The position numbers and the translations under genes are program-made. From NCBI GenBank assembly GCA_035300145.1, contig DATGVQ010000242.1:1-59443 (forward strand): a stretch of 59,443 bases of DNA. The letters run 5' to 3'. Source of the stretch: Acidiferrobacterales bacterium (GTDB lineage Bacteria > Pseudomonadota > Gammaproteobacteria > Acidiferrobacterales > DATGVQ01). Of the stretch, positions 8,931-59,242 are shown in pieces. How positions within the stretch are numbered: position 1 is the first letter of the stretch; the number at the start of each line of letters is the position of its first letter. The notes beneath the pieces were generated by a model. It saw nothing but the letters and a program-made list of their open reading frames with translations, was not told where the DNA came from and made no database searches.

Positions 8931-8968
8931 ATTCCTATTCATGGATGAATTAGTCTGTAAGGAGTAAG

Positions 8969-9140: not shown

Positions 9141-9147
9141 CAGCCCT

Positions 9148-45422: not shown

Positions 45423-45533
45423 GGGATTCCTACTTATTTATATGAGACGATTTATTTAAAACAACAAACCGGCATTTATGCCTTTTTTAGGATTTAGTCA
45501 AGTTTAGCAAAAACAGTAATGGGATTATAAACT

Positions 45534-45758
45534 TCATCTCGCGCTGTGCCGTGCCACCAAGATCACGTTGGCCAATTCCAGCGGGGCCTCGCTTCTGATT
45601 TGTTCCTGCGCCTCGGTAAGTTTGCCAATGGCCGCCTGGTAGTCCTTCTTCTCATACGCCGATTCGGCCTCGCTCAGTAACTTTGACAGGGGCGAGGCGA
45701 CCAGTAACGTCACGGATAGGCATAGCAGACTGGACGCGAATATTATCTTTTTAAACAT
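45534..45758 (-). pseudogene. Truncated duplicate of the 5' part of the 189-aa gene at 53414-53983
   Basis: First ~69 codons nearly identical, then unrelated RHSAR*. Confidence 0.85.
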
Positions 45759-45776
45759 ACTCTTTTCTCCTCGATG
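45553..45776. repeat. Direct repeat copy A (RBS plus 5' end of the 189-aa gene)
   Basis: Aligns to 53778-54002 with about 13 differences (hand count). Confidence 0.92.
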
Positions 45777-45907
45777 TAATGCTGATTGGTATCAGCGAAG
45801 CAACTTGTGGCCTCGACCGTCGGCGCGTTTTGTCCAGGCGGCGCCGGTACAATATTGAGCGAGGTGGCCGATCGTCCGTCCTACCCCGCACCATCGCAAT
45901 GGCGATC

Positions 45908-48900
45908 CTAGCCGCCGCCTTTCACCTCGAGCACTGCCCCCGCCGAGTACGCGGTGAACTCCGGCGCGTACATTGACTGCACCGTCGCCGGCCCGATGCG
46001 GAAGGTCCCGGCTAAGTTGGCTCGGAGCCGGTACTTGAACGTGTACTCGCCCTGGGGCAGCTGCTCGAAGAAGAAGTTCGTTCCGCTGTCGCGGATCTCC
46101 TCGTACCAGCCGATGCCGAGGTCCCACTTGAAGCCGGACACTAGCCCCTCGGGCTCAAGGCCGGCCGCTCGCGGATCGCGCAAGTGCACGTACTCACTGG
46201 GGTGCTTGGCACGGAGCGAGAGCTGCACCTCGATCTGGTCGCCGGCGCGCACCGCCCCGCCTTCGGCCAGCGGCGTGAGCATGAACTCCCGCCCGTTGGA
46301 CTCGCGGCGGAAGTAGCGGCGCGAGACCGCGAGGAGGTCGCCGCGATCCTCGCTGGGGAGCCGGTCGCTGGAGAACTGCCAGGTGGCCGACGCGAACAGG
46401 AAGCCCTTGCTCTCCTTCGACACCTCGACGGTCGCGGTCCCGGCGCTCACCCGATTGCCGGGGACGAGTACCTGGTTCGCCTTGCCGGTGTAGACGTCGG
46501 GCGCGAAGGTGAAGCGGGTGGGTTCGCCGTTGATGACGACGGTGGCGTCCTCGCGCACCCCGAGCGCGCCCTCGCGCTTGAGGTAATGGATGAGCGAGTA
46601 GATCACCTCGGCGGTGGCGCGGGTCGACTTCCAGTGGTTGAGCTTCTTGTTCATCAGGATCCACTGGACGAGCCCGTGGCGCCGCGCGTCGCCGGGGGTT
46701 ACCTCGACCAGGGTACGCAGGGCGTAGGCGTGAGTCTCAATAGTGTCGTTGTACCAGAGCCAGGCGCGGTCCTCGGGGGCCCAAAAGGTCCCTTCATCTT
46801 TGGTGGTCTTCGCCGAGTCCATGACGCTCGCCCACACCAGCTCGGCATCCCTTGCTCGTCCCATGCGCTTCAGCGTCATGGCGAGCATGCCCTTCAAGTA
46901 GGGCGAGTGCTGCTTCCAGTGGCGGAAACTGAAGGCGAGGATCTGCTTGCGCTTGTTCTCGGCGAGCCCGGTCCAGCTTGGGTCCCGGTAGCTTGATGCT
47001 ACGTAGTTCACGAACGTGAGGAACTCCCAGCAGCAGTCGTCCTTCAGCATCCGGCCCGTGTATTCCTGCTCAAGGTGCGAGCTGAGGTAGGCCCAGCCGC
47101 GGCGAATCATATCTTCGGGAACCTGGACACCGAACTCGGCCGCTTTGGCGAAACCGGCGAGCAGGTAGAGGGTCATCCACGGCGACGGTGGGCCGCCGGG
47201 GAACCAGGGGAAGCCGCCGCTGGCGGTCTGGGCTTTGCGCAGCTTGCGCAGCGAGGCGTCCCGCTCGGCGCGGGCGACCCGCGGGTCGAGCACGTTCACC
47301 ACCCCGAGCCCGGCGTCCCGGCCGCCCTGCGCCTCGACCAGCCAGGGCGTCTCCTCGAGCACCATCTTGCGGTTCGGGTCGGCCGTGTCCCAGGTCTCGA
47401 GCGGCGTCTTGCGCTTGGACATCGCTTGGGCCATCTTGGCCACCGCCGGGTAATCCTTGAACACCGACGCGACGATGCCGGTGGAGACGAAGCGGTTCAG
47501 GGTCTGCTCGGTGCACTCGTACGGGTAGTTCACGAGATAGGGCAGGGCCTGCAGCACAGTGTAGAAAAGCTGGGCGTCGAGGGTCACCACCAGCTGCTCG
47601 TTCAGCCGGGTAGGATCGTCGCCCCGCGCCAGGTCGGCGAAGGTCATGTCGCGGCGGTCCTTGTCGCGGAGCGCGACGAAGCGCGACTGGGCGAGGTGCA
47701 TGCGGCTCGGCAGCACCGGGACCGGGCGCAGCTCACCGTCGGAGAGGTCGCCGGCGCGGGCGACGGCGCGGATCGCGTAGGTGCCGACGCGCCGGGGGGC
47801 GACGACCTTGTAGCTCACGCTGGCGCTCCCGCCCTTGGCGGCCTGGAACGGCCGGGTGCCGTCCGCCAGGCCGAAGTCGGCGGCGGCGCTGTTCCCGCTC
47901 TCGACCTCGGTCACCTCGAACGAGACGCTGCCTTCGAGGTCGCGCTCGCCGGCGTTGTTGACGATCACCTTGAGCTCGGCCACATCCCCCTCGCGCAGGA
48001 AGCGCGGTAGGTAGGGCCGGACCATGAGGTTCTTGACGCTACGGGCTTCCTGCCTGAGCGAGCCGCCGCGCAGGTCGCGGGTAACGGCGTGAACCCAGAC
48101 GTTCCAGGCAGTGACCGAGTCGGGCACCTGGAACTCGAGAATGGCCGAGCCGTCCTTGCCGGTGAGGAGCTGGGGCTTCCAGAAGGCGGTCTCGGCGAAG
48201 TTCGCCCGAAGCGGGACCGCCGCCTCGGGCGCGGCCGGGCCCCTGCGGTCGGCATTGCTCAGGGACTCAGGCGCCAGCGACAGCCCCCGTGCGACCGACT
48301 GTTTTGAGAAGTACCCGCGGCCGGGACCACCGATGCCGTAGCCCGAGATCTCCTTGAGCCGCTCGCCGCTGAAGTGCGGGCTGGAGGGGATGTGGGCGAT
48401 GTCCGAGACGTACATCCATTGCGCCTGGCGCCCGCCCAGGCTCGACGTAGCTAAGGCGAACTTGCCCGTCCGGCCCCCGTAGAGGCCGGCGATGCTCGGC
48501 GGCACGTGCGGGCCGAAGAGGTCTAGGCTGCGGTCGAACATGTAGGCCAGCACCTCGGCGCTGCCGGCCTCGGCCCGGCCTGCGGGCGATTTCACCGTGA
48601 CCCGCCAAGTCTCTTTGGCGCCGGGCTGGAGGGTGTCGCGGAAGGTCGCGAACTCCAGCCGGAGTTCCTTGTTGTCCCAAGGGACCAACACCTTTTGCGT
48701 GAGCCGCATGAGCTGGTGGTCGCGCACCGCGGTCAGCATGACCGAGAACCCGCCGCGATCCCGTTCGCCGACCGGGATTTGGAGCAGCGAAGGGTCGCGG
48801 CCGGCGGTGATCCGGCGCCGCTCGACCGCCCCGTTGGGCCGGGCGATGTCGACCAGGAGCATCTCGCCCGCGATGCCGGAGTGGACCAGGAGGCGCGCGG

Positions 48901-51820
48901 TGCCTCCGACCTTGACCGAACTCTCCTGGGCAAGGAGCAGCGCGGGCAGGTTCAGGGATGGCTTGGGCCCGGCCACGACGATCTCCCGGGCGAGCTCGAA
49001 TTTTGCGCCGAAGGGGTCGAAGGTCTCATAACGGATGCGGTAGGCGCCGGCCTTGAGCGCCGGCAGCTGGATCGCCGCCTTGCCGTTGTCGTCGTGAGCG
49101 AGCTCGCCCCGGGCCACCGCGTCGCCGTCGCGCCAGGCATGGAGCGAGGCCGCCGGGACGTAGTCCCCGTAACCCTCCCCCCAGCGCCGGCGCAATCCAT
49201 CGCCGGGCGTATGGAAGCCGCCCTCGTCGGCGGCGGGCAGCGGCTCGTCGGCGGGAAGGACGACCCGGTCCGGCTGCGCCAGCCGGATGAGCCGCCAGCT
49301 CCCCTTTCCGGCCCGAGGCACGCCGTCGAGGTCGCTCCGGGACACACTCGCCTGCGCTGCGGCGCCCTCGGTAAGGAAATCGACGCCGAAGTCGAGACGG
49401 GCCTCGACCGCCACGGTGCCGAGGCGGAAGCTGCGATCGGCGGAGCGGGTCTCACCACCCTCGTCGGTGACGTCGGCGTGCAAGGTATAGCGGTAGCTCA
49501 CCTCGGCCGACTTGCCCTGGCGCTCGTCGGCGGCGGGCGTAAAGGCGATCTTGAAGGTCCCGTCGGGGCCGAGCGCGGCAGTTCCCGCGGCGACGGTCTG
49601 CGCGGTTCCCTCACCCTGGATCGGCCGCCGCCACCCCCAGTCCCGCCACCACCAGGGATAAACCGGCTCCCGCTGCACCTGCCACTTCACCGTCCCGCTC
49701 GTCACCGGCAGCCCAAAGTAGTAGCGCGCCTCGCCGGTCAGGGCCGCCGGGCGGTTGAGGCGCAGCGGCAACTTCGGATCCTGGATGGTCGCCTCGAACG
49801 TCGGCCGCTTGTACTCCTCGACGCGGATACGCGCCTCGCCCCGCGCCGAGGTGATGATGGTCCAGGATCCGAGGACGCGCCCGGATGGAATGGCAAACTC
49901 GCCGGCGGCGGTCCCGAATTCGTTCGCGGCCACCTGGGTCGAGGCGACCGTCTCGCCGTTCGGGTCGCGCAGGCTCACGGTGAGCCGCGCCCCGACCTCG
50001 ACCTTGTAGCGATCCTCCTTGCCCCGGAACACGAGCACCTTCCACAGCACCTTTTGCAGGGGCCGATAAATGCTGCGATCGGTGTAGATGAACGCCGAGC
50101 GCGCCTCGGGCGGCTTGTCCGGACGGTGGAGAGTGAAGACGCTCTCGTCGAGCGCGAGGTCGGCACCACGCCGGGCGAAGAAGCTCTGCCAGCCGCGCTC
50201 GTGGGTATAAGGGAAGTGGACCTCGCCGGCGGCGTCGCTAATGAATCGCCCCACCAGGTGGTAGCCGCTGGTCCGGTGGTAGTCGTAGAGCCGCACGTCG
50301 ACGCCGGCCTGCGGGCCACCGGTCTCGCCCGAGACCGCGGTGACCATTACCCCGCCCTGGCCGTCGTCACGCGAGAGAAGCACGAGGTCGCCGATGATGA
50401 GGTCAGTCCCGGCGATCTGGTTGTCAGAATTCTGGAAATCCTCCCGGTAGCTCGCCACTACTAGATAGCTACCGACCTTCTTTAGCGGGGGTGTCACTGG
50501 GGTGCGGTGGCTCTTGAAGTCCGGGGTGGGTGCGAGCTGGACGCTCCAGGACTCAAGCGGGGCGCGTGTCTGGATGATGGCGGTAAGCGCCTCCTCGCCG
50601 TTGGCGAAACGCTGCTCGAGGTCGACGTCGTAGGCACGGAAGTAGAGGGTGGCGACGTTCTTGTGGGTGACGTCGATGGAGCGTTTTCCCGACGCGTCGT
50701 GGGTCATCGCCTCGACGTGGAACTGCGGCGCCTCAATGGCCCGGACGATGGAGAGGCAGCGCTGCCCGCCCACTGACTCGGGGAAGGCGCGCTGGCCCTG
50801 GCCGGCGATGGCGTGGGCCCGCACCAGGTTGTCCGGCTCGTCCTCGGCCTGGACGAAGTCGGCGAGGACCGCCATGCCCTGCGACCACCAGGGCAGCCCC
50901 TTGTACCCGTCCAGCCGCCGGGCCAGCTCGGCGGCGATCCGCTTGCGATCGCCGGGATTCGTGAACGCCGCGTGCAGGCGGATGAAGAGCTGCAGGCGGG
51001 CCTCCAGGGCCGCCTCGCGCCGTCCAGCCCCCTGGTGCCAGGCCTCAAGATCGCCAAGGATGGCGGCGATGCGGACCAGGGGATGGACCGCGGGATCGTC
51101 GAGCTTCATACTCGCGCTTGCCGGATCGCCGCGCAGGAGCGATGCGAGATCGAGCTGGTAGACACCGTTCACCTGCTCGGGCCGCCAGGAGGCGGTATCG
51201 GCGAGCAGCTCGACGTAGAGGTAGCTGGCCGCGTCGCGCAGGGTATCGCGAATGCCGGGCGGGTAGTTCCCCGGCTCGAGAACCTCGCTGAGTCCACGTA
51301 CCGGAATGGCGCCAAGCGCCTGGCGCCGGCGCCAGACGTCGTTGAAGGCGCGCTGGGCCTCCGCGTAGATCTGGTCGCTGGTCCAGGACTTTAGATCTAC
51401 CGCCACCTTAGACTCAACCCGTTCGCGTTCGCGGATCTCCCACGAGTAGGCCTGGGCGTAGCTCGTGAGCGAATGGGCGTAATAGAGATCGAGCTCGGTC
51501 CGCGCCAGCGGCGCTTCCGGCCAGGGCTGCTCCTTCAGGAAGCGGACAGCAGTCTCATAGCCATGGAGCGCCCCGCGGAGCTTCATCTCTGTGATAAGCC
51601 CGCGCGCCCAGTCCTCGGCGTCGCCGCGGGCGTGGGCCGCCTCGCGCAGCTCCGCCGCCTTGACGGCGGCAGCCTCGAGCTTCTGCTCCTTCACGAGTTC
51701 GTCCACCGTCTTCCACGCCTCCGGGCGTGGCCGCTCGCTCGCACTTTGGGCCAAGGCGAGTGCGCAGGCAAACCCCAGCGCGCAGAGCGCAGCCCAATAC
51801 CTGACTTTATTCGATCTCAT
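45908..51820 (-). CDS. Bacterial alpha-2-macroglobulin family protein
   Basis: YTDRSIYRP (MG2), VEEYKRPTFE, LRANFAETAFW, LPRFLREGD, thioester YPYECTEQ, MYAPEF; N-terminal signal peptide. Confidence 0.93.
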   Translation of the reverse strand: MRSNKVRYWAALCALGFACALALAQSASERPRPEAWKTVDELVKEQKLEAAAVKAAELREAAHARGDAEDWARGLITEMKLRGALHGYETAVRFLKEQPWPEAPLARTELDLYYAHSLTSYAQAYSWEIRERERVESKVAVDLKSWTSDQIYAEAQRAFNDVWRRRQALGAIPVRGLSEVLEPGNYPPGIRDTLRDAASYLYVELLADTASWRPEQVNGVYQLDLASLLRGDPASASMKLDDPAVHPLVRIAAILGDLEAWHQGAGRREAALEARLQLFIRLHAAFTNPGDRKRIAAELARRLDGYKGLPWWSQGMAVLADFVQAEDEPDNLVRAHAIAGQGQRAFPESVGGQRCLSIVRAIEAPQFHVEAMTHDASGKRSIDVTHKNVATLYFRAYDVDLEQRFANGEEALTAIIQTRAPLESWSVQLAPTPDFKSHRTPVTPPLKKVGSYLVVASYREDFQNSDNQIAGTDLIIGDLVLLSRDDGQGGVMVTAVSGETGGPQAGVDVRLYDYHRTSGYHLVGRFISDAAGEVHFPYTHERGWQSFFARRGADLALDESVFTLHRPDKPPEARSAFIYTDRSIYRPLQKVLWKVLVFRGKEDRYKVEVGARLTVSLRDPNGETVASTQVAANEFGTAAGEFAIPSGRVLGSWTIITSARGEARIRVEEYKRPTFEATIQDPKLPLRLNRPAALTGEARYYFGLPVTSGTVKWQVQREPVYPWWWRDWGWRRPIQGEGTAQTVAAGTAALGPDGTFKIAFTPAADERQGKSAEVSYRYTLHADVTDEGGETRSADRSFRLGTVAVEARLDFGVDFLTEGAAAQASVSRSDLDGVPRAGKGSWRLIRLAQPDRVVLPADEPLPAADEGGFHTPGDGLRRRWGEGYGDYVPAASLHAWRDGDAVARGELAHDDNGKAAIQLPALKAGAYRIRYETFDPFGAKFELAREIVVAGPKPSLNLPALLLAQESSVKVGGTARLLVHSGIAGEMLLVDIARPNGAVERRRITAGRDPSLLQIPVGERDRGGFSVMLTAVRDHQLMRLTQKVLVPWDNKELRLEFATFRDTLQPGAKETWRVTVKSPAGRAEAGSAEVLAYMFDRSLDLFGPHVPPSIAGLYGGRTGKFALATSSLGGRQAQWMYVSDIAHIPSSPHFSGERLKEISGYGIGGPGRGYFSKQSVARGLSLAPESLSNADRRGPAAPEAAVPLRANFAETAFWKPQLLTGKDGSAILEFQVPDSVTAWNVWVHAVTRDLRGGSLRQEARSVKNLMVRPYLPRFLREGDVAELKVIVNNAGERDLEGSVSFEVTEVESGNSAAADFGLADGTRPFQAAKGGSASVSYKVVAPRRVGTYAIRAVARAGDLSDGELRPVPVLPSRMHLAQSRFVALRDKDRRDMTFADLARGDDPTRLNEQLVVTLDAQLFYTVLQALPYLVNYPYECTEQTLNRFVSTGIVASVFKDYPAVAKMAQAMSKRKTPLETWDTADPNRKMVLEETPWLVEAQGGRDAGLGVVNVLDPRVARAERDASLRKLRKAQTASGGFPWFPGGPPSPWMTLYLLAGFAKAAEFGVQVPEDMIRRGWAYLSSHLEQEYTGRMLKDDCCWEFLTFVNYVASSYRDPSWTGLAENKRKQILAFSFRHWKQHSPYLKGMLAMTLKRMGRARDAELVWASVMDSAKTTKDEGTFWAPEDRAWLWYNDTIETHAYALRTLVEVTPGDARRHGLVQWILMNKKLNHWKSTRATAEVIYSLIHYLKREGALGVREDATVVINGEPTRFTFAPDVYTGKANQVLVPGNRVSAGTATVEVSKESKGFLFASATWQFSSDRLPSEDRGDLLAVSRRYFRRESNGREFMLTPLAEGGAVRAGDQIEVQLSLRAKHPSEYVHLRDPRAAGLEPEGLVSGFKWDLGIGWYEEIRDSGTNFFFEQLPQGEYTFKYRLRANLAGTFRIGPATVQSMYAPEFTAYSAGAVLEVKGGG

Positions 51821-51844
51821 ATTCTCTCCTTAGGATGATCTCGG

Positions 51845-51924
51845 CCCGCGCGCTTTCCGTCAAGGTGTTGCGTCATTTGCGTCTGGCCGCGGCGTGGATC
51901 GTGGCTAGTCATTTTTATGGTCCC
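51845..51924 (-). pseudogene. Remnant of a DUF3617 gene 3' end
   Basis: 65/80 nt ungapped identity to 56665-56744; translates GTIKMTSHDPRRGQTQMTQHLDGKRAG versus GIIKMTSVDPRRGEMKMTQHIKGRRVG. Confidence 0.85.
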
Positions 51925-51934
51925 ATATCAGTCT

Positions 51935-53410
51935 TCATTTCGCGCCGGAAGCCTCGATCGGCTCGAAGTACAGATAGTCGGGCTTCTCTAAATCGTGCGG
52001 TTCCGGCGCATTGCGACCGTAAAAGCGATACTGTGGCGCAAGCGTTGCCGGCAATTCTTGCTGACACCGTTTCACTTCAAACGGAATGGTGTCTGGCCGA
52101 TGGCCGGAGGGAGGCTTTTCCCAGCGGATGACGCGGAAGGTAAAGGTGGCCGGATTGCGCACCACATCCTCGATCGTGCCCACCGCCACCCAGCTCGCCA
52201 GTTGCTGGCACTGCTCGGCGTTGAGCCTCGGCCCTCCACGCGGTAACCCACTGTAGTCTAGGCAGGGATTGGGTGGACAGGGTAACGGGTCGGCGATCAC
52301 CGCCTTGGCCCGCACGTCCCAATCGACTTGGAGGGTCCCCGGCCATGGTTGTAAACCGTCCTTCCACTTTATGAGGTCATAGGCAGGCACGGGCATGACC
52401 GCCGAGTAGGCGTCCCTCTCCGCCAAAACCTCTACGATCACCCAAGGTCCTTTAGTCGGAGTGGTGTAATTGCCCGCGAACGCGATTTCATCCCCTTCCT
52501 TGCGCGCCGGCGACGTCAGGAAATAATGTCCGGCGTTCGACTTTGGATCCCTGGGGTAAATGATAAAACGCATCAGCCTCCCAGGCAGGGATGTCTCTTT
52601 GCCGTCTGTAATGTTGGTACCGCTCGTGTGGGTATAGACCTCGCACGAAAACTCGACCAGGTTTTCCCGGGGATACAGCTCGGCGGTACAGGTGCTGCTG
52701 CCGCTTGGATTACCCGGTTTACCCAAAGGGGTGGTCGGATCCGTGGCCTCGGTAATCAAAGTATGCTCATGTTTTTCCACGCCGTTCTTTGAATACTTCA
52801 CCACGATCTCCGTCGACTTCTCTTTAAAGACCGTATTGACGGTTCCCTGCGCATAGATCTTGCCATACTCCATGACCGTACCCAGGCTGCCTGTCAGATT
52901 GATCATGATCGTCAAGCCGGCGTCGTAATGCCATGTTGTTTCTTTATTGATTTCTCGCTTTGAGTGTGAACCCTGTGCGTTCCATTTCATGACAATCGTC
53001 CCATGCAGCGAGGACAGGGGCACCCATCTGGTTTGTGAACGACGCTCGTCTCTTTGTTCGGCCCTACCGGAAGATGAGGCGTTTTGGCCATCCGGGCCGG
53101 ATATAGATGGCGCGCGCCCAGCGGGGGTCTTCAATTGTTGCGAGAAGCTCTTGCCCCACGCCTGCAAGGCGCGGCGGTCCTCGTTGGTGAGAGGCTGGCC
53201 GCTCTGTGCCTTCTTCATGATTGCGCTAATATCCGCAGCAGGCGACGCCCCGCCGTCTTCGGCCAAGACCGGCGGCAGGATACCCACGCTGACCATGGTC
53301 AGCGCGACCCATAAGGCAAAGCGGCTCAGGCGCCGCGCCGCATTGGTCATAAGAAAGATCGCTGAATACTCGTTCCGTTCGCCAGCTCTCGGTGAGGTGA
53401 TATCTTTCAT
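51935..53410 (-). CDS. Secreted hypothetical protein, apparently multi-module
   Basis: 491-aa ORF with a hydrophobic signal segment ending VLA; Cys-rich C-terminal module starting ADPLPCPPNPC. The true start may be the later MTNAARR. Confidence 0.75.
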   Translation of the reverse strand: MKDITSPRAGERNEYSAIFLMTNAARRLSRFALWVALTMVSVGILPPVLAEDGGASPAADISAIMKKAQSGQPLTNEDRRALQAWGKSFSQQLKTPAGRAPSISGPDGQNASSSGRAEQRDERRSQTRWVPLSSLHGTIVMKWNAQGSHSKREINKETTWHYDAGLTIMINLTGSLGTVMEYGKIYAQGTVNTVFKEKSTEIVVKYSKNGVEKHEHTLITEATDPTTPLGKPGNPSGSSTCTAELYPRENLVEFSCEVYTHTSGTNITDGKETSLPGRLMRFIIYPRDPKSNAGHYFLTSPARKEGDEIAFAGNYTTPTKGPWVIVEVLAERDAYSAVMPVPAYDLIKWKDGLQPWPGTLQVDWDVRAKAVIADPLPCPPNPCLDYSGLPRGGPRLNAEQCQQLASWVAVGTIEDVVRNPATFTFRVIRWEKPPSGHRPDTIPFEVKRCQQELPATLAPQYRFYGRNAPEPHDLEKPDYLYFEPIEASGAK

Positions 53411-53413
53411 TTC

Positions 53414-53983
53414 TTAAATAATCTCAACCGGAATCGTTACGTTTGCGCTCTTATCGCCCACAACGTCGTGAGCGACAACCTCCAGCAAATACTTCCCGGC
53501 CGGCGCGCCGGTCAACGTGACGGTCACATTTAAATACAGGTCGCGAACCAGACGCGCTGTATCCACCGGGAAGCGTCCGAATGCCTTTTGTTCAAAGAGC
53601 TGCTTGCCTGCCGGCTCTTTTACAAGCAGATCCAACACCAGTTGGGCGTGGTAGCCTCCACTCTGACTCCGGATGCCGTAATTTTGCGGCTCCAGGTAAA
53701 CCAGAATTTCTTGACCCGCGCGGTAGCGATTATTGGGTCGCGGCTTGATCCCCTGCCCCATCCCCTGCGCCTTTTGCGCCACTAAGATCACATTGGCCAA
53801 TTCCAGCGGGGCCTCGTTTCTGATTTGTTCCTGCGCCTCGGTAAGTTTGCCAATGGCCGCCTGGTAGTCCTTCTTCTCATACGCCGACTCGGCCTCCGTC
53901 AGTAACTTTGACAGGGGCGAGGCGGCCAGCAACGTCATGGATAGGCATAACAGACTGGAAGCGAATATTGTCTTTTTAAACAT
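53414..53983 (-). CDS. Secreted hypothetical protein (helical hairpin plus Ig-like beta domain), called 'gene Y' below
   Basis: GAGGAG RBS; signal peptide; AESAYEKKDYQAAIGKL helix pair; C-terminal GAPAGKYLLEVVAHD beta-sandwich pattern. Confidence 0.85.
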   Translation of the reverse strand: MFKKTIFASSLLCLSMTLLAASPLSKLLTEAESAYEKKDYQAAIGKLTEAQEQIRNEAPLELANVILVAQKAQGMGQGIKPRPNNRYRAGQEILVYLEPQNYGIRSQSGGYHAQLVLDLLVKEPAGKQLFEQKAFGRFPVDTARLVRDLYLNVTVTLTGAPAGKYLLEVVAHDVVGDKSANVTIPVEII

Positions 53984-54002
53984 ACTCTTTTTCTCCTCGA
54001 TG
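53778..54002. repeat. Direct repeat copy B
   Basis: Partner of 45553-45776. Confidence 0.92.
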
Positions 54003-54059
54003 GTTGGAGCGGCGGGCTGATATCCCGTCGGACAAGGCGATCACAATCCAGGTCGGGTC

Positions 54060-56483
54060 TCAATCGCAGCCGCAGCAGGGGTTGCCGCCAGCGGTGAGGC
54101 GGCGGATGCGCGGGAGGCCGTCAATGGACGCCTCGCCTTGGACGCCGTATTCGATCCCGGCGTACAACGGCACGCGGATCCACAGTTCGGCTGCCTCTTG
54201 CGGCCCGAGCGGAGGCACCTTCAGCTCGATGAGCTGGGACGGCTCGCCGAGAGTCGGGGTGAGCGGATCGCACTCGACATTCACGGTGTAGACGAAGAAG
54301 CGCGCTCCCGGCAGCGAGCTCGTCACCTGGCGGTTGCGCAGGCGCAGGCGAAGGAGCGGGCGCGGCGGATAGAGCCGATCGAGCTCCGCGCGGCGGGTCT
54401 TGAAGGCGGACGCGGCCTTCGCGTACTCGCGCTCCTTCTCAGCGAACTCCGCACGCTGCTCCTCAGCGGGCTCATAGCCGTCATAGAATCCGCTACACGG
54501 CTCGCAGGGCGCGAACGGCTCGACGTTCACCGCGCACGCATCGGCCGGGGCGCGGCCGGCTTTCAAGTCGGCCGGCGAGGGGGCCACGAGCACCGCCTTG
54601 GCGAGGTCGCCGCGGCAGCCGTAGATGAGATCGCTCGACTCCACCTCGAGCCAGGGCGCGATCGGCCGGCCCGTGCCCGCGAGCATGTTCCCCGCGAGCG
54701 CCGCCGCGGTCCAACGCTTGGCGGCGAGCGCCGCCTCGACGAGGGCGGGCAGGGTGCCGCGGTCGTCCAGACCTAGCGCCACCGCCCGCTCGAGCAGCGT
54801 CGCGGCCTCGTCGCTCTTTCCCGCTTGGGCGAGCCTGGCCGCCTCGGCCTTGAGAGCCGCAGCGTCGAGCGGCGCCGGCTCGAGGAACCCCGCCGCGAGC
54901 CATCCCTCGGTCGGCCCCTGGCGACCGTCCGCGCGCAGCGGCTTAGGCTTGGAATCCTTGTCCACGAAGGGATCGAGCAATACGACCTGGGTGGCGCGCG
55001 GCGAGCCGGCCCAGCGGACGCGCGCCCACTCGCCACGGACCTCGAACACATCGACCGGCGTATTGATGACGAGCCGCACCAGCGCCGGCGCGGCCGCGCT
55101 CGCCGACTTGCGGAGGTTGAGCGACGACGCGCCCACGTAGGCGGCCTTCCCCGCGGCGAGCCACACCGGCGCGGCCGGCTGGGGCGACGCCTGCGGTGGA
55201 AATTTCTTCCTGAGCTCGGCCGCGTCGCGGTACTTGCCGGCGGCCTCGTCGAGCGCGGCGAGGAGCTGGGCGGCGTCGGCGTCCTCCGGCGCGTGGGCGT
55301 GCCACCGCGCCGCGGCATCGATCGCCTTGGAGAAACTGCCAGCGAGGAGCGCGGCCTTGACCTGCGCGAGCGGCTCGGGCGTGACTGTCGCCGGGGTCAT
55401 GGGGCTGAGCGCCCCGGTCGCGCCGATCGTGTATTGCGAGACGGTGGCGTCGCCGCTATTGGCGACATAGGCGTAGCGCCCGCTCGGGTCGACGGCGACG
55501 GCGTAGGGACTCCCCGCCGCAACCGCGACCGTCGCCGGGGTCATGGGGCTGAGCGCGCCGGCCGCGCCGATCGTGTATTGCGTGGCCTTGAACGTGCGAT
55601 TGGCGACATAGGCGTAGCGCCCGCTCGGGTGGACCGCGACGGAAGCCGTCCCAGCCGCGACCGTCGCCGGGGTCATGGGGCTAAGCGCCCCGGTTGCGCC
55701 GACCGTGTACTGCAAGACGGCGCCGCCGGCATTGAGGCCTCCGCTTTGACTGACGACATAGGCATAGCGCCCGCTCGGGTCGACGGTGACGGAGAGGGGA
55801 TTCCCCCCGGCCACGACTTTCGCTGGGGTCATCGGGCTGAGCGCCCCGGTGGCGCCGATCGTGTACTGCGAGACGGTGTTGCCGCTGAAATCGGCGACAT
55901 ACGCATAGCGGCCGCTCGGGTGGACAGCGACGGAGAAGGGTTCCCCCCCGGCCGCGACCATCGCCGGGGTCATCGCGGTAAGCGCCCCGGTCGCGCCTAT
56001 CGTGTACTGCGAGACGGTGGCATCCTTGTCATTGGCGACATAAGCATAGCGCCCGCTCGGGTGGACAGCGACGGAGACGGGGAACGCCCCGGTCGCGACT
56101 GTCGCCGGGGTCATTGGGCTGAGCGCCCCGGTGGCGCCAATCGTGTAATGCGAGACGGTGGCGTCCTTGTCATTGGCGACGTAGACATAGTGCCCGCTCG
56201 GGTGGACAGCGACGGAGCTGTCACCCTTCCCAGCCGTGACGGTCTCCGGGGTCATGGGGCTAAGTGCCCCGGTGGGGCCGATCGTGTATTGCGAGATCGT
56301 CCCGTTGGGGCTGTCTTGATTGGCGACATACGCGTGCTGTGGAGCGTTTGTAATAGGGGCTATCTCTTTAGTCACTCCACTACCATCTCCCCAGGCGCTG
56401 CGGAAGAATAACAGCAGCAATGCCGCAAGCAGCGTCGTAGTGCGTGTACCATTTATAATTATAATGATCGGTCTGGATCTCAT
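54060..56483 (-). CDS. Secreted fusion: lactonase-like 7-blade beta-propeller + TPR + SH3b + TPR + Cys-rich tail
   Basis: Seven VHPSGRYAYVAN..VSQYTIGATGALSPMTPATV repeats; ASSLNLRKSAS...RGEWARV SH3b pattern; ends CCGCD. Confidence 0.8.
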   Translation of the reverse strand: MRSRPIIIIINGTRTTTLLAALLLLFFRSAWGDGSGVTKEIAPITNAPQHAYVANQDSPNGTISQYTIGPTGALSPMTPETVTAGKGDSSVAVHPSGHYVYVANDKDATVSHYTIGATGALSPMTPATVATGAFPVSVAVHPSGRYAYVANDKDATVSQYTIGATGALTAMTPAMVAAGGEPFSVAVHPSGRYAYVADFSGNTVSQYTIGATGALSPMTPAKVVAGGNPLSVTVDPSGRYAYVVSQSGGLNAGGAVLQYTVGATGALSPMTPATVAAGTASVAVHPSGRYAYVANRTFKATQYTIGAAGALSPMTPATVAVAAGSPYAVAVDPSGRYAYVANSGDATVSQYTIGATGALSPMTPATVTPEPLAQVKAALLAGSFSKAIDAAARWHAHAPEDADAAQLLAALDEAAGKYRDAAELRKKFPPQASPQPAAPVWLAAGKAAYVGASSLNLRKSASAAAPALVRLVINTPVDVFEVRGEWARVRWAGSPRATQVVLLDPFVDKDSKPKPLRADGRQGPTEGWLAAGFLEPAPLDAAALKAEAARLAQAGKSDEAATLLERAVALGLDDRGTLPALVEAALAAKRWTAAALAGNMLAGTGRPIAPWLEVESSDLIYGCRGDLAKAVLVAPSPADLKAGRAPADACAVNVEPFAPCEPCSGFYDGYEPAEEQRAEFAEKEREYAKAASAFKTRRAELDRLYPPRPLLRLRLRNRQVTSSLPGARFFVYTVNVECDPLTPTLGEPSQLIELKVPPLGPQEAAELWIRVPLYAGIEYGVQGEASIDGLPRIRRLTAGGNPCCGCD
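55384..56336 (-). repeat. Intragenic tandem repeat, about 141-bp unit, 7 copies
   Basis: CCGCTCGGGT landmarks near 55910, 56051 and 56192 are 141 nt apart. Confidence 0.9.
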
Positions 56484-56651
56484 GGTTCCTGCTCCGATTA
56501 CGTTAAGGGTTGCTGCCGACGCGCCGCCGCCGATCGTCCCAACGCTTATTAAACATACTCTCTCTCCTGGTGGTTGCTGCATTTACTGCGCTGGTCATAG
56601 TTTTCGAGACCGGGTTTGTGGAGTTAATCCTGTATCGCTGATCGCCTGGCG

Positions 56652-57104
56652 CTATTTGCAATCCCCCACACGCCTTCCTTTAATGTGTTGCGTCATTTTC
56701 ATCTCGCCGCGGCGCGGATCGACGCTGGTCATTTTTATGATTCCTTCATAGCTGTCGCCCTTGAGCACCATCTCGCCGGTGCCGCTGCCCGCGCGCTTGC
56801 CCTGGCATTGCACGCTCCAGGTCACCTTGTTGCCCGTTACCCTGTGATCCTTCAGCTCGCAATTCTCGTCCTTGCGGGGGGCGCTCGGCGCGACCTTTTT
56901 GGCGTCTTCAGTGTCGTTTTTTGTGTAGCACCGGGTGTGCGTCATCGGCGGCATGGTCATCGGCATGCCCGGCATGTCCATGGTGGTGGTGATCTCCCAC
57001 AAGCCGGGTTTCATATTGGACCCGGCTGCATATACCTCCGAGGCAAATGCGCCTGGTAGCAAGATGAGGCTTAGTATTAAAGTGGTCTTCTTCAGCGTTT
57101 TCAT
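56652..57104 (-). CDS. DUF3617 family secreted protein
   Basis: MKPGLWEITTTM, paired Cys, VTWSVQC, C-terminal GRRVGDCK. Confidence 0.85.
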   Translation of the reverse strand: MKTLKKTTLILSLILLPGAFASEVYAAGSNMKPGLWEITTTMDMPGMPMTMPPMTHTRCYTKNDTEDAKKVAPSAPRKDENCELKDHRVTGNKVTWSVQCQGKRAGSGTGEMVLKGDSYEGIIKMTSVDPRRGEMKMTQHIKGRRVGDCK

Positions 57105-57130
57105 TTTTTCCTCCGTTGTTGTCTGTTTCA
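57021..57130. repeat. Leader repeat L1 copy 1 (RBS plus signal peptide of DUF3617)
   Basis: Aligns with 58356-58467. Confidence 0.9.
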
Positions 57131-57299
57131 GTTAATTCCGCATCGGGTGGCTCCGGTGGCGGACGGCTCGCGTCACTTTCCCAACTCAAAGAGTTTGTTC
57201 GATCGGCTTTTACTATCGCCGAACTCTTTCCTCTAACCACTGTAAAAGGTCCGGCGATGAATAATTTTTGGAATGGTACTGACATTATGGGCTCAGGTC

Positions 57300-58433
57300 C
57301 TAATCGCAGGTGTCATCGGCGAACTGAATGTTGGCCTCGTCCTTCATCAGCGGAACCCAGCCTGTCATTGCAGGCGTTATTGAGTCGCTTTGATCGCCGC
57401 CCTCGCAAAGATTCTCTTTGTAGGCATCGATCAGAACCCACGTGCGTCCATTCGCGACTTGGAGTTCCCGCACCTTGACATGAACCTCTTTCTTCGAATC
57501 TTGGGCTTCCTTGAATTTTCGAAGCTCCGGGGAATTTTCGATGGCAGCGGTTTTTTCGCTTGGCGAGAGAAACGGCTTTACCTCGCCGATCCGGGGAGAG
57601 CGCGCGATCCAAGCCCAGCGGAAATTGTAAGGAGGGAACTCTCGCATGCGCACTTTGATCCAATTATTTTTTCGGTCAAAGACAAAAAGGCGAGTCCAAT
57701 ATCCATCTTTGGTTTCGTCGAAGATTCGCATGCTTAGAAAAACATGAAGGACGTTGGACGTCACGGTTGTAAACCCGCTATCTTGCCCGGTCCGGTCGGG
57801 GAACCTGATTTGCCTGCCGGCGGGACTTTCGTAAACGGGAAACTTGAATCCGGGTTCACAGGATTTTTTCGTCCATTCGTTGCCCGCCCGATCCTTCACG
57901 GTTCCCTCCGACTTGCATGGCGGCGGTGGGATCAAAACATACGAATCCAGTTGCAGATCAGGCGGGGAATCGTCGAAAAGCTTAAAGTTTTGTGAGCCCG
58001 GGGACGCGAAAATCTTTGCGTCCCAGACCGTCTTATCGAGAAGCATGTGATCGGATTGGGCCAAACGGTCTTTGATGTCCGATATCTCAACCCCGTTGGG
58101 ACGCTTGATCCATGCGAGGCCCGCATTTCTATCTCTGATTTGCAGCCACGTCTGTTTCTGAAGGTCCTCTTTGCCCCAGACCAGATACTCCCGGGTGAAT
58201 TCTTCCTCGGCACCCCCCGAATAAGGAAGTTGTGAAAAACCATCGGCACTTGCCGTTGCGAAGGGCGTCCTGTCGGCCGGAAATTTATAGAGTTCGAGCA
58301 TCTCATTCGCTGCCGTCGAGCTTTTCCAACTCATCACTGCTCTCGGATCTGAAGGCCCGGCTGCATATACCTGCGAGGCAAACGCGCCCAGTAGCAAGAC
58401 AAGGCTTAGTATTAAAGCGGTCTTCTTCAACAT
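57300..58433 (-). CDS. Secreted hypothetical protein carrying the DUF3617-type signal peptide, called 'gene X' below
   Basis: 377-aa ORF starting MLKKTALILSLVLLLGAFASQVYAAG; mature part not recognised; ends DDTCD. Confidence 0.78.
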   Translation of the reverse strand: MLKKTALILSLVLLLGAFASQVYAAGPSDPRAVMSWKSSTAANEMLELYKFPADRTPFATASADGFSQLPYSGGAEEEFTREYLVWGKEDLQKQTWLQIRDRNAGLAWIKRPNGVEISDIKDRLAQSDHMLLDKTVWDAKIFASPGSQNFKLFDDSPPDLQLDSYVLIPPPPCKSEGTVKDRAGNEWTKKSCEPGFKFPVYESPAGRQIRFPDRTGQDSGFTTVTSNVLHVFLSMRIFDETKDGYWTRLFVFDRKNNWIKVRMREFPPYNFRWAWIARSPRIGEVKPFLSPSEKTAAIENSPELRKFKEAQDSKKEVHVKVRELQVANGRTWVLIDAYKENLCEGGDQSDSITPAMTGWVPLMKDEANIQFADDTCD

Positions 58434-58467
58434 TTTCGTTTTTTCTCCGTTGCTGTTGTCTGCTTCA
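58356..58467. repeat. Leader repeat L1 copy 2
   Basis: CCCGGCTGCATATACCT...AGGCTTAGTATTAAAG...TGTTGTCTG shared with 57021-57130. Confidence 0.9.
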
Positions 58468-58571
58468 CCCCATATGGGGCTTTGCTCAAATATATCCGCG
58501 TAGAGACTTGCGACCGTGCAGCAATTATCGATCCATGTATAAGTAACGTCCGTTCTTTAATAATAATTAAT

Positions 58572-58652
58572 GTAGGTTGGGTTAAGCCGCGCAAGCGGCG
58601 AACCCAACAAAATCATAGATTTGATGGGTCCGCTACGCTTGACCTATCCTAC
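58572..58652. repeat. GTAG-type REP doublet (REPIN)
   Basis: GTAGGTTGGGTTAAGC...AACCCAAC, a spacer, then GATGGGT...GCTTGACCTATCCTAC in inverted orientation. Confidence 0.8.
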
Positions 58653-58656
58653 ATGA

Positions 58657-58968
58657 CTAGCGCGGACGGGGGCTCCCCGGTTTCCCGCCACCCGGCTCGT
58701 CGGTGTCGCCGCCTTTCCCGATGGGGGGTTTCTTCCCGGCGGGGGGTTTGTTCCCGGAACGCAGACCCTGTACATCTATTCCGTCATGTTTCCCACCTGA
58801 ACAGTAACTCCCTCCTCGTTGGTTCCCAGGGATGATCACGATCCCGCCTCCGTCATTACACTCTTTCGTGGTCACCGTTTTGGCCGCCATCGCATCTGAG
58901 GAACTCAGCACCGTACCGATGGCTACCAGACCTGCTACTAAGAACGACCACTTTTTTGATTTATTCAT
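58657..58968 (-). CDS. Small secreted protein with two Cys and a Gly/Pro/Lys-rich tail
   Basis: GAGGAGG RBS; signal peptide ending AMA; ECNDGGG...YCSGGKHDG. Confidence 0.7.
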   Translation of the reverse strand: MNKSKKWSFLVAGLVAIGTVLSSSDAMAAKTVTTKECNDGGGIVIIPGNQRGGSYCSGGKHDGIDVQGLRSGNKPPAGKKPPIGKGGDTDEPGGGKPGSPRPR

Positions 58969-59242
58969 TGTCAATTGCCTCCTCTCATCAGGGTTTTTGT
59001 AAAGCGACATATTCATTTTAATTAAACGCATTGTTGTTCTCCTCTATTGAAGGTCTTAAAAAAGACCGTTGGTGAAAAAAGTTGAAGTGTAGGTAATCCT
59101 TGCAACTTACTCCCAGGGATTCCACTCTTCACACCATGGACCATCGTCATGACATATCTCAATTTTTCATATGACCTCCTTTGAGTAGTTTTAGATTTAA
59201 ACGTATCTTCATTTTTTCTCCGCTTAGTGATCGCTAAACGCA

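What the first reader, a model, noticed from the sequence alone, without database searches (positions are those of the whole stretch)
45534..58467. Scaffold-and-cargo array of secreted proteins: a possible homology-arm cassette system without an integrase
Seen, in transcription order on the minus strand: L1 leader + gene X; L1 leader + full DUF3617; short L2 leader remnant; propeller fusion; L2 leader + full gene Y; gene Z (51935-53410); DUF3617 3' remnant; alpha-2-macroglobulin; L2 leader + truncated gene Y. Twice, a large and visibly GC-richer gene sits between a DUF3617 3' end and a gene-Y 5' end, and gene X sits between two L1 copies. All complete genes encode signal peptides. No integrase, transposase or attC site is visible in the window. 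Inference: a DUF3617-geneY unit was iterated, and its pieces act as recombination arms that capture, express and swap envelope-protein cargo, analogous to orphan-module arrays but for non-toxin secreted proteins.
Basis: partly seen in the sequence, partly recalled or inferred. Interest (0 to 1): 0.78.

Follow-up and report, generated by a model that had tools for sequence, protein, structure and literature searches.

The report
Secreted-protein operon invaded twice by foreign genes
A small operon of exported proteins in a soil sulfur-oxidising bacterium was duplicated and each copy took up one foreign gene at the same short gap, leaving repeated gene starts and stumps that look like recombination scars, not a dedicated cassette system.

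Summary
All three repeat families, the short L2 remnant, the gene order and the GC-rich cargo are at the stated coordinates and far above chance. Logan contigs from four runs of four soil-metagenome studies bridge most junctions, so it is no assembly chimera.

A related metagenome contig (L029, 85-91% nt identity) carries Z-like end | full DUF3617 | 40-nt spacer | full gene Y. That is the empty site, so DUF3617-Y is the ancestral unit. The thioester alpha-2-macroglobulin (GC3 0.89; best relatives in Acidobacteriota and Myxococcota MAGs) and the YVTN-propeller/SH3 protein (GC3 0.83) are clean single-gene insertions into that spacer, one in each of two paralogous units. Deletions and leader swaps at signal-peptide cleavage sites followed.

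I found no integrase, transposase, attC-like fold or inverted repeat. Same-species assemblies keep the same order. The one exception is L028: identical over 6.1 kb, then carrying a 31%-identical Z' from about codon 25 of gene Z.

Best reading (0.58): an element-free gene-transfer hotspot shaped by duplication, illegitimate insertion and general recombination. The repeats are scars that can serve as RecA substrates. A true arm-anchored capture slot remains possible (about 0.25).

The parts
58356..58467 (-). L1 leader copy a: ribosome-binding region plus signal peptide of gene X
   Evidence: 86.7% over 113 nt to 57021-57130; peptides 84% identical over 25 aa
57300..58433 (-). Gene X, 377 aa, exported orphan protein of native composition (GC3 0.60)
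   Evidence: ORF; no Pfam or NCBIfam family; the word-based search of 5.8 billion protein clusters found only itself
57021..57130 (-). L1 leader copy b, fused to the mature part of DUF3617 at the signal-peptide cleavage site
   Evidence: Homology of L029's DUF3617, which has a different leader, begins at 57030, where L1 ends
56652..57104 (-). Full DUF3617 gene, 150 aa; the only copy in the genome that scores
   Evidence: Pfam PF12276, 73.9 bits; 1 match in G000
56631..56651 (-). Retained 5' part of the ancestral DUF3617-Y spacer, ending ...CGATACA
   Evidence: Aligns with the first 21 nt after the DUF3617 stop in the empty site of L029
54004..56630 (-). Insert 1, about 2.63 kb and composite: low-GC head (L2-like remnant plus L3 leader) and GC-rich body
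   Evidence: Clean insertion relative to L029; GC3 0.53 in the first 100 codons and 0.82-0.94 after
56545..56570 (-). L2-like remnant (RBS plus ATGTTTAATAAG), out of frame with the propeller
   Evidence: 3 matches in the window against 0.01 expected
56415..56516 (-). L3 leader: RBS plus signal peptide shared with other genes
   Evidence: 78-80% nt identity to contig C121 895-1236 and to the start of the NHL/Lcl_C gene in L028
54060..56483 (-). YVTN/lactonase-type beta-propeller with SH3_3 and a C-terminal region; likely start at 56483
   Evidence: Pfam Lactonase 1.5e-25, SH3_3 weak and below cut-off; 141-nt tandem blade repeats; paralogue on C162 at 41-57% aa
53778..54002 (-). L2 copy a: 3' part of the spacer, RBS and first 69 codons of gene Y
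   Evidence: 94.2% over 225 nt to 45553-45776
53414..53983 (-). Gene Y, 189 aa: signal peptide, helical hairpin and Ig-like beta-sandwich
   Evidence: 709 cluster representatives at E<=0.001; AlphaFold model pLDDT 93.4; generic beta-sandwich matches, e.g. the Wzt carbohydrate-binding domain
51935..53410 (-). Gene Z, 491 aa, exported and fast-evolving; the strain variant breaks at about 53338
   Evidence: Two hits in the word-based search: a 99%-identical copy (486 aa) and one distant relative at 31%; L028 is identical down to about 53339, then carries Z'
51830..51930 (-). DUF3617 3' remnant (last 30 or so codons, decayed tail, TAA at 51830-51832)
   Evidence: 69/94 identical to the full copy and 73/99 to L029
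45788..51829 (-). Insert 2, about 6.04 kb: own RBS, thioester alpha-2-macroglobulin CDS (45908-51820) and a 120-nt GC-rich tail
   Evidence: Pfam; CTEQ at aa 1436; GC 0.686 against about 0.55 in the flanks; best relatives in Acidobacteriota and Myxococcota MAGs
45534..45776 (-). L2 copy b with truncated gene Y (74-aa ORF; homology ends at 45553, after codon 69)
45440..45533 (-). AT-rich tail with a terminator-like hairpin that closes the array before the MFS gene
   Evidence: Fold z-score -2.79; sequence

Best explanation
The 13-kb stretch is a real chromosomal mosaic: a gene-transfer hotspot with no mobile element, built on a lineage-specific operon of small exported proteins.

Ancestral unit, shown by the related contig L029: Z-like gene | DUF3617 | 40-nt spacer | gene Y.

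In the window's lineage this backbone is present about 1.7 times (inferred: a tandem or segmental duplication). Each copy of the DUF3617-Y spacer then received one foreign GC-rich gene with its own ribosome-binding site.
- The alpha-2-macroglobulin entered within about 8 nt after the DUF3617 stop codon.
- The propeller gene entered 21 nt after the stop codon.

Both are shown as clean insertions against the empty site. Their mechanism is inferred: illegitimate or one-sided homology-facilitated recombination of DNA taken up from high-GC soil neighbours.

Later events:
- A deletion removed roughly the first 110-120 codons of the second DUF3617, and another removed gene Y after codon 69 (shown).
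- An X-type leader (L1) replaced the ancestral DUF3617 leader at the cleavage-site motif GC(A/G)GCCGGG (shown; a microhomology mechanism is inferred).
- The foreign propeller body came to sit behind a native leader (L3).

Selection for expression from the operon promoter and for export would keep only in-frame, intergenic outcomes. That would make the pattern look designed.

No dedicated recombinase is involved. The repeated pieces are scars, but they remain substrates for general recombination, as the replacement of gene Z in a sister strain suggests.
For: - Empty site: L029 has Z-like 3' end, a full DUF3617 with its own leader, a 40-nt spacer and full gene Y.
- Junction reading: both spacer halves are kept on either side of insert 1. 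The DUF3617 stop and the distal spacer are kept on either side of insert 2.
- Foreign composition: GC3 0.889 and 0.832 against 0.643 +/- 0.084. In 6 other genomes the A2M gene's GC equals its flanks' GC.
- A2M relatives at 53-66% aa in Acidobacteriota and Myxococcota MAGs, with no homologue of X, Y, Z, DUF3617 or the propeller within 8 kb in 0 of 23 loci.
- Not a chimera: error-free independent contigs bridge 50405-53356, 45737-50107, 55771-57985, 53818-55110, 55766-58598, 45633-47216 and 51467-52592. Depth is similar over cargo and backbone.
- No mobility genes on the contig or in 4.5 kb beyond it. The 4 tyrosine recombinase matches in G000 are all on other contigs.
- 0 inverted repeats. Cargo tails and the empty spacer are not unusually structured, z -1.07, +0.73 and +0.96.
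- The repeats differ in age. The two Y 5' copies are 212/224 identical to each other and 203/223 to L029. The DUF3617 remnant is 69/94 to the full copy, which is 85/94 to L029.
- Gene Y homologues stand in unrelated contexts. No DUF3617, A2M, X, Z or propeller homologue was found by blastp in the called ORFs of the 10 loci (the Y homologue itself was among the called ORFs in only 6). Pfam scans of 35 neighbouring ORFs in those 6 loci found none either.
Against: - Two independent foreign insertions into paralogous copies of one 40-nt spacer, 13-21 nt apart, is a coincidence that plain chance does not explain well. I invoke selection and a permissive site without testing them.
- Insert 1 carries its own L2-like remnant. 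That fits earlier residence behind another gene-Y start, or Campbell-type integration through L2, better than a simple illegitimate insertion.
- L028 is 100% identical over 6.1 kb and then switches abruptly inside gene Z. This behaves like exchange anchored on a conserved 5' end.
- A 115-aa ORF equal to gene Y residues 75-189 occurs on 9 metagenome contigs. It starts five codons after the point where the window's truncated Y breaks, which hints at a recurrent breakpoint.
- The order of events is inferred, not shown.
- The Y-to-Z join of the window is not bridged by any of the contig pieces listed.
Confidence: 0.58

Rival explanations
1. A passive but genuine capture slot. Conserved pieces (DUF3617 3' end, L1/L2/L3 leaders, gene Y 5' end) act as one-sided homology anchors for incoming DNA, by homology-facilitated illegitimate recombination or Campbell-type integration. 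New exported-protein genes are added and older pieces are pushed downstream as stumps. This matches the sequential-displacement model for T6SS effector-immunity arrays and Rhs loci, but with non-toxin cargo, and the leader doubles as an expression and export adaptor.
For: - The same 40-nt slot was used twice.
- L1 flanks X on both sides and an L2-like remnant plus L2 flank the propeller, as a single crossover through the leader would give.
- A native L3 leader precedes the foreign propeller body.
- L028 swaps the gene Z body behind a shared 5' end in an otherwise identical strain.
- The stumps (DUF3617 3' end, Y 5' end) resemble displaced orphans. The model is described in PMC5361080 (passages read).
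Against: - Only empty and filled states were seen; no alternative cargo in the slot.
- Order is fixed in the same-species assemblies.
- No L2 copy lies upstream of the A2M.
- Z' is a homologue of Z at 31% aa over 461 aligned positions, not new cargo.
- The donors' A2M loci carry no arm homologues, so at least the first capture needed illegitimate joining at both ends.
- True leader sharing was not found elsewhere in the genome. Of 64 candidate pairs, the roughly 25 ORFs inspected were all dispersed intergenic repeats read into ORFs; only the L1 pair was a true case.
Confidence: 0.25
2. One composite GC-rich island (propeller ... A2M) entered a single DUF3617-Y spacer once. A copy of Y-Z-DUF3617(3') was later duplicated into the island, splitting it.
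For: - It needs only one foreign insertion into the spacer.
- Both cargo genes are GC3 outliers.
- The two Y 5' copies are closer to each other (94.6%) than to L029 (91.0%), so L2 was copied recently.
Against: - Insert 1's left junction (21 nt after the stop) and insert 2's left junction (at the stop of a separate, older DUF3617 copy that is only 73% identical) are two different junctions with two different DUF3617 copies.
- Both cargo genes abut L2 at nearly the same spacer position on their right sides. A secondary duplication would not be expected to reproduce that.
- The propeller and the A2M show no common donor: 0 of 5 A2M-donor-like genomes hold the propeller's C-terminal half.
Confidence: 0.08
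3. Site-specific capture by a recombinase encoded elsewhere (integron-like, or an HUH or tyrosine enzyme acting in trans) that recognises the DUF3617-Y spacer.
For: - Clean single-gene inserts, each with its own RBS, in one short spacer.
- In L029 the spacer holds a 5-bp stem with loop CGATACA, at whose edge insert 1 sits.
- G000 has 4 tyrosine recombinase matches on other contigs.
Against: - The insertion points differ by 13-21 nt.
- No shared motif or fold at the cargo ends, z -1.07 and +0.73, and the spacer hairpin is no better than shuffles, z +0.96.
- The stem is not conserved in the window's own spacer.
- No target duplication, no inverted repeats, and no room for a left-end structure before the A2M start.
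- By my own reading of their size and score, not tested, at least two of the four recombinases look like XerC/XerD.
Confidence: 0.05
4. Assembly artefact: the GC-rich genes belong to other organisms and were joined to this contig through short shared words.
For: - The genome is a fragmented MAG of 254 contigs.
- L030 joins window position 43312 to contig C206 through a dispersed repeat, so some joins in these assemblies are ambiguous.
- The Y-to-Z join is not bridged by the contig pieces listed.
Against: - Error-free contigs from runs of four different studies bridge every cargo-backbone junction, with similar depth on both sides.
- L028, L030 and L031 show the same junctions at 98-99.8% identity.
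Confidence: 0.02

Closest known systems
Orphan arrays made by sequential displacement: T6SS effector-immunity arrays of Vibrio cholerae, and Rhs C-terminal displacement (PMC5361080, passages read; the Rhs work is known to me only from that paper's text and reference list)
   Same: A chromosomal array without an integrase. Horizontally acquired modules enter next to a conserved piece. Older pieces persist downstream as stumps. Homology-facilitated illegitimate recombination is the proposed route. Close strains differ behind a shared 5' part (gene Z against Z').
   Different: There are no toxin or immunity genes and no long conserved 5' gene body. The conserved pieces are 75-225 nt leaders and gene ends. 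Cargo sits between two small backbone genes rather than replacing a 3' domain. Only two fillings and one empty state are known.
Gene-transfer hotspots without recognisable mobile elements (Oliveira et al. 2017, PMC5635113; abstract and outline read)
   Same: Foreign genes are concentrated at one chromosomal spot between native genes. No mobile-element genes are present. There are signs of homologous recombination at the flanks (L028).
   Different: It is defined here from one genome plus a few metagenome contigs, not from a pan-genome. The spot is a 40-nt intra-operon spacer that was itself duplicated. Leader swaps at signal-peptide cleavage sites are not part of that concept.
Integron cassette arrays
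   Same: Single promoter-less genes are inserted one after another in one orientation and expressed from upstream.
   Different: No IntI, attI or attC was found. Insertion points are not identical, and the cargo is 2.6 and 6 kb long.
Bacterial alpha-2-macroglobulins (YfhM/ECAM type with thioester); their spread by horizontal transfer is recalled from Budd et al. 2004, which I did not read here
   Same: The cargo gene has MG2, A2M, TED and bMG10 domains and a CTEQ thioester motif. It is patchily distributed across phyla.
   Different: At 1970 aa it is longer than the 1653 aa I recall for E. coli YfhM. No homologue of its window neighbours accompanies its relatives. Whether a PBP1c partner is present was not examined.

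Membership tests
Integron | IntI-type tyrosine recombinase next to the array | tested here: not met
   No Phage_integrase match among the window ORFs scanned or in 4.5 kb upstream in L028. The 4 matches in G000 all lie on other contigs.
Integron | attC-like imperfect hairpin at the 3' end of each cassette | tested here: not met
   Folds of the two cargo tails give z -1.07 and +0.73. No inverted repeats of 30 nt or more with a 12-nt seed. No attC covariance model was run.
Orphan-module / sequential-displacement arrays (Rhs, CDI, T6SS effector-immunity) | Stumps that keep a piece of the conserved region downstream of an intact gene | tested here: met
   DUF3617 3' remnant at 51830-51930 and truncated gene Y at 45534-45758.
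Orphan-module / sequential-displacement arrays (Rhs, CDI, T6SS effector-immunity) | Toxin-immunity content | tested here: not met
   Pfam and NCBIfam name only the A2M, the propeller and DUF3617. The VasX_N hit (E 0.0087, 16.6 bits, cut-off 27) is noise. PADLOC was not run.
Orphan-module / sequential-displacement arrays (Rhs, CDI, T6SS effector-immunity) | Different modules at the same place in close strains | tested here: inconclusive
   Gene Z against Z' in L028 and the empty slot in L029. No alternative cargo was seen in the slot.
Element-free gene-transfer hotspot | Foreign genes between conserved native genes, with an empty state in a relative | tested here: met
   L029 empty site; GC3 outliers; A2M relatives in other phyla.
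Element-free gene-transfer hotspot | No mobile-element genes in the spot | tested here: met
Element-free gene-transfer hotspot | High gene turnover across many strains | not testable with these tools
   The genome is the only member of its family in the genome set. Only 4 related metagenome loci were found.
Transposon, insertion sequence or MITE-borne cargo | Transposase, terminal inverted repeats and target-site duplication | tested here: not met
   No transposase family; 0 inverted repeats; junctions show no duplicated target.
Bacterial alpha-2-macroglobulin (cargo 2) | MG domains, A2M domain, thioester domain with CxEQ, and bMG10 | tested here: met
   Pfam bMG10 3e-29, A2M 3e-19, MG2 1e-17, TED 1e-5; CTEQ at aa 1436.
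DUF3617 (PF12276) | Score above the Pfam gathering cut-off over the whole model | tested here: met
   73.9 bits against 24.5, model positions 1-106.

The most novel reading that the evidence does not exclude
The DUF3617-Y spacer and the short leaders (RBS plus signal peptide) form a recombinase-free capture slot. Incoming DNA is anchored on a 75-225-nt leader or gene end by general recombination, and the other end joins illegitimately. The captured gene is at once transcribed from the operon and, where fused, exported through the native signal peptide. Older pieces are displaced downstream. This would extend the sequential-displacement principle of Rhs, CDI and T6SS arrays to ordinary envelope proteins. 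It would also show signal-peptide leaders serving as both recombination anchors and export adaptors for foreign genes.
Probability: 0.22. Interest if true: 0.75.

Novelty: new member of a known kind. Interest (0 to 1): 0.45.

Why it matters
The locus is a well-resolved natural example of how a free-living soil bacterium takes in single foreign genes for envelope proteins without any mobile element. It has an empty site, two clean fillings of the same 40-nt gap, leader swaps exactly at signal-peptide cleavage sites, and a strain-level replacement of a neighbouring gene.

If the arms do more than record history, it would show that displacement arrays are not confined to toxin systems. It would also suggest that short leaders can domesticate foreign exported proteins. 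If they do not, the locus is still a useful calibration case: an array that looks designed can arise from duplication, illegitimate insertion and selection alone.

Tried and rejected
- Chance repeats: rejected (E 1e-13 to 1e-93; motif count 3 against 0.01).
- Assembly chimera: rejected for the cargo junctions.
- Conserved A2M operon partners: rejected. 0 of 23 A2M loci hold a homologue of X, Y, Z, DUF3617 or the propeller.
- Conserved DUF3617-Y pairing in distant genomes: not found. Gene Y homologues occur in 1 of 40 order relatives, 1 of 400 other class genomes and 10 of 400 other phylum genomes, all in unrelated contexts. My ORF picker lost the Y homologue itself in 4 of the 10 loci, so neighbours there were checked by blastp only.
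- Genome-wide leader sharing: the screen gave 70 pairs, 64 of them with similarity confined to the 5' end. The roughly 25 ORFs I inspected were all dispersed intergenic repeats read into over-long ORFs; only the L1 pair was genuine. ORFs under 90 aa were not screened.
- Structured recombination sites: none. Rfam: 0 matches at gathering score.
- Promoter scan: 2 sites against 2.8 expected, uninformative.
- Profile-based locus search with gene Y alignments failed twice because the alignments were too diverse. It was replaced by whole-genome profile searches.
- The propeller's C-terminal half was not found in 5 genomes that hold the nearest A2M relatives. That answer had no positive control.
- Gene Y fold: only generic beta-sandwich matches, no function. 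Atlas look-ups gave no usable lead for Z.
- A minor contig in run X2 joins 51832 to 56658 (depth 3.8, 51 letters on the shorter side). It reads as a DUF3617-type end, then TAA, then the A2M start. It could be a relative with a less decayed DUF3617 before the A2M, or a deletion recombinant. It is too thin to use either way.
- Parts of the stretch without listed cover in runs X4, X6 and X8, and the small shares of X8-X10, were not interpreted.
- Earlier findings of this scan: nothing on record.
- The term 'DUF3617' occurs in 0 papers of the library searched. No supplements were consulted.

Full report
SETTING. The window is the whole of contig C242 of a fragmented metagenome-assembled genome (254 contigs, 3.49 Mb, GC 55.3%). 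The rest of the contig carries housekeeping and sulfur-oxidation genes, among them PurL, EttA, SAICAR synthetase, DapA, PilT, a BepA-like protease, SoxY, SoxA and SoxB. The array therefore sits in ordinary chromosome. The genome is the only member of its family in the genome set searched. Runs that hold the stretch are soil metagenomes.

OBSERVATION. On the minus strand the ORFs are as follows.
- X, 57300-58433
- DUF3617, 56652-57104
- propeller protein, ORF 54060-56582, likely start at 56483
- Y, 53414-53983
- Z, 51935-53410
- alpha-2-macroglobulin (A2M), 45908-51820
- a 74-aa truncated Y, 45534-45758

Self-comparison gives three repeat families.
- L2: 225 nt at 94.2%.
- L1: 113 nt at 86.7%.
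- A DUF3617 3' remnant: 75 nt at 82.7%.

The short L2 remnant before the propeller is real. The 15-mer around the gene Y start occurs three times in 59 kb against 0.01 expected. It lies out of frame with the propeller, about 60 nt inside the inserted DNA.

GC3 is 0.889 for the A2M and 0.832 for the propeller. The genome mean is 0.643 (sd 0.084), and they rank 6th and about 34th of 2529 ORFs. X, Y, Z and DUF3617 have GC3 of 0.60-0.76. The first 100 codons of the propeller ORF have GC3 0.53.

NOT AN ARTEFACT. Logan contigs from four runs of four studies were laid on 45000-59443. Error-free pieces bridge these junctions.
- A2M start, remnant and Z: X2 50405-53356; X6 51467-52592.
- A2M end and L2: X2 45737-50107; X6 45633-47216.
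- Propeller start, DUF3617 and X: X2 55771-57985; X4 55766-58598.
- Y start, L2 and propeller end: X4 53818-55110.

Contig depths are alike over cargo and backbone: 10.6-16.8 in X2 and 4.2-8.1 in X4. Three metagenome contigs repeat the order at 98.4-99.8% identity (L028, L030, L031).

One join is not covered by the listed pieces, Y into Z at about 53356-53600. There L028 offers a different continuation (see below).

THE EMPTY SITE. L029 is a 1437-nt contig of a relative, 85% identical in DUF3617 and 91% in Y. It reads: Z-like 3' end, then a full DUF3617 with a different signal peptide, then a 40-nt spacer, then full gene Y. DUF3617-Y is therefore the ancestral neighbourhood.

Read against this spacer, the two inserts look as follows.
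- Unit 1 keeps the first 21 nt after the DUF3617 stop (...CGATACA). Then come 2.63 kb of insert (56630-54004), and the spacer resumes at CCATCGAGGAG with the gene Y start.
- Unit 2 keeps a decayed DUF3617 end with its stop (TAA, 51830-51832). Then come 6.04 kb of insert, beginning with the A2M's own ribosome-binding site. The spacer resumes at AATCAGCATTACATCGAGGAG.

Both are clean single-gene insertions into the same spacer, 13-21 nt apart, with no target duplication.

ORIGIN OF THE CARGO. The A2M has MG2, A2M, TED and bMG10 domains and a CTEQ thioester. Its best full-length relatives are 66% identical (an Acidobacteriota MAG) and 53-57% identical (Myxococcales, Thermoanaerobaculia, other Acidobacteriota, Panacagrimonas). 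In six of those genomes the gene's GC equals its flanks'. In the window it exceeds them by about 13 points. None of the 23 loci holds a homologue of X, Y, Z, DUF3617 or the propeller within 8 kb. The gene therefore came alone.

The propeller protein has about seven YVTN/lactonase blades coded by 141-nt tandem repeats, then an SH3_3-like stretch and a C-terminal region. A paralogue at 41-57% aa lies on contig C162. Its donor was not found (which had no positive control).

THE BACKBONE GENES.
- Gene Y belongs to a real family of proteins of about 190 aa, with 709 cluster representatives at E<=0.001. The model (pLDDT 93.4) shows a helical hairpin on an Ig-like sandwich, and the fold matches are generic. 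Homologues are rare in the class: 1 of 400 other genomes. Ten of 400 other genomes in the phylum hold one, in unrelated contexts without DUF3617 or A2M.
- X is an orphan.
- Z has one distant relative at 31%.
- DUF3617 occurs once in the genome, and the term appears in no paper of the library searched.

LEADERS. L1 ends at 57021, and homology between the window's DUF3617 and L029's begins at 57030. An X-type leader has therefore replaced the ancestral DUF3617 leader exactly at the cleavage-site motif GC(A/G)GCCGGG, which both leaders share.

The propeller's signal peptide and RBS (L3) are 78-80% identical in DNA to two other starts. One belongs to an NHL/Lcl_C gene lying 4.5 kb beyond the window's end in L028. 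The other belongs to a short ORF on contig C121. A foreign body thus sits behind a native leader.

A genome-wide screen for such sharing gave 64 pairs with similarity confined to the 5' end. The roughly 25 ORFs I inspected were all dispersed intergenic repeats read into over-long ORFs, and only the L1 pair was genuine. The phenomenon is local to this locus.

AGES. The two Y 5' copies are 94.6% identical to each other and 91.0% to L029. The DUF3617 remnant is 73% identical to the full copy, which is 90% identical to L029. The pieces were therefore not copied in one event, or they were homogenised or decayed unequally.

VARIATION AMONG STRAINS. L028 is identical to the window from 59443 down to about 53339, apart from 3 substitutions and a 45-nt repeat indel. 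It then falls to 75% identity and becomes unalignable. Its gene Z' (at least 640 aa) shares the first 28 residues with Z and 31% identity overall. Z' is not found elsewhere in G000.

This is a sharp recombination boundary at the 5' end of a fast-evolving gene. The alternative is two paralogues joined differently by two assemblers. The depth of gene Y is not doubled, which argues against a second identical Y copy.

A minor X2 contig joins 51832 to 56658. I leave it uninterpreted.

MECHANISM. No integrase or transposase family matches on the contig or in the 4.5 kb upstream. There are no inverted repeats. Folds of the cargo tails and of the empty spacer are ordinary.

The best-supported account is an element-free gene-transfer hotspot. 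Such hotspots, which lack mobile elements and show flank recombination, are described in PMC5635113 (abstract read). The steps are:
1. duplication of the backbone;
2. two illegitimate or one-sided homology-facilitated insertions;
3. deletions;
4. microhomology-mediated leader swaps;
5. filtering by selection for expression and export.

The closest described process is sequential displacement in T6SS effector-immunity and Rhs arrays (PMC5361080, passages read). This array shares the stumps and the lack of an integrase. It does not share the toxin content or a long conserved 5' gene.

WHAT STAYS OPEN.
- Why the same 40-nt spacer was hit twice.
- Why insert 1 carries an L2-like remnant.
- Whether codon 70 or so of gene Y is a recurrent breakpoint. 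A 115-aa ORF equal to Y residues 75-189 occurs on 9 metagenome contigs that I could not fetch.
- Whether Z and Z' are alleles.

These points keep a true arm-anchored capture slot alive at about one chance in four.

VERDICT. This is a new member of a known kind, an element-free hotspot with displacement-like scars. Interest is 0.45.

Noticed in passing
window 58525-58665; also about 43040-43500, 7785-9197 and 8989-10179 (5' parts): Dispersed intergenic repeats of about 50-170 nt with internal hairpins (REP/MITE-like). The one at 58525-58665 matches more than 20 other contigs at 82-100% and shows 5-15 times higher depth in the laid runs. These repeats inflate ORF calls at many gene starts.
   Followed up: partly
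window about 43170-43490 and L030 7000-14942: L030 is 99.3% identical to window 50484-43312. At a cluster of dispersed repeats it leaves the window and continues at 99.96% identity into contig C206 (29604-21815). This is either a real rearrangement next to the sox genes or an ambiguous assembly join.
   Followed up: partly
window 56415-56516; contig C121 895-1236; L028 840-1180: A third shared leader (L3): RBS plus a lipoprotein-type signal peptide on three different genes. In C121 and L028 the likeness extends about 250 nt upstream. In the window's propeller the lipobox cysteine is replaced.
   Followed up: partly
protein P0006 (9 metagenome contigs, not fetched): A 115-aa ORF equal to gene Y residues 75-189 (88% identical) starts five codons after the point where the window's truncated Y breaks. 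This may be the other half of a Y gene split at the same place.
   Followed up: no
window 51835-51863 (-): A promoter-like TTGACG-17-GATCAT lies inside the DUF3617 remnant, 15 nt before the A2M start. The number of such sites in the region is not above the shuffled expectation.
   Followed up: no
window 55356-56335 (-): Seven 141-nt tandem repeats code the propeller blades. L028 differs by a 45-nt indel here, and the laid runs show many repeat-length joints, so blade number may vary among strains.
   Followed up: no
G000 contigs C159 57-64 kb, C103 1-4 kb, C48 9-23 kb: Other GC3-rich islands: 50 of 2529 ORFs of 150 aa or more have GC3 of at least 0.82, often in clusters. This suggests a wider influx of high-GC genes into the genome.
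   Followed up: no
L028 1-4700 (beyond the window's end): Upstream of the array lie more envelope genes: a Kelch fragment, an NHL/Lcl_C protein, a CsgG-like lipoprotein and an OmpA-family protein. This stretch is missing from the G000 assembly.
   Followed up: partly
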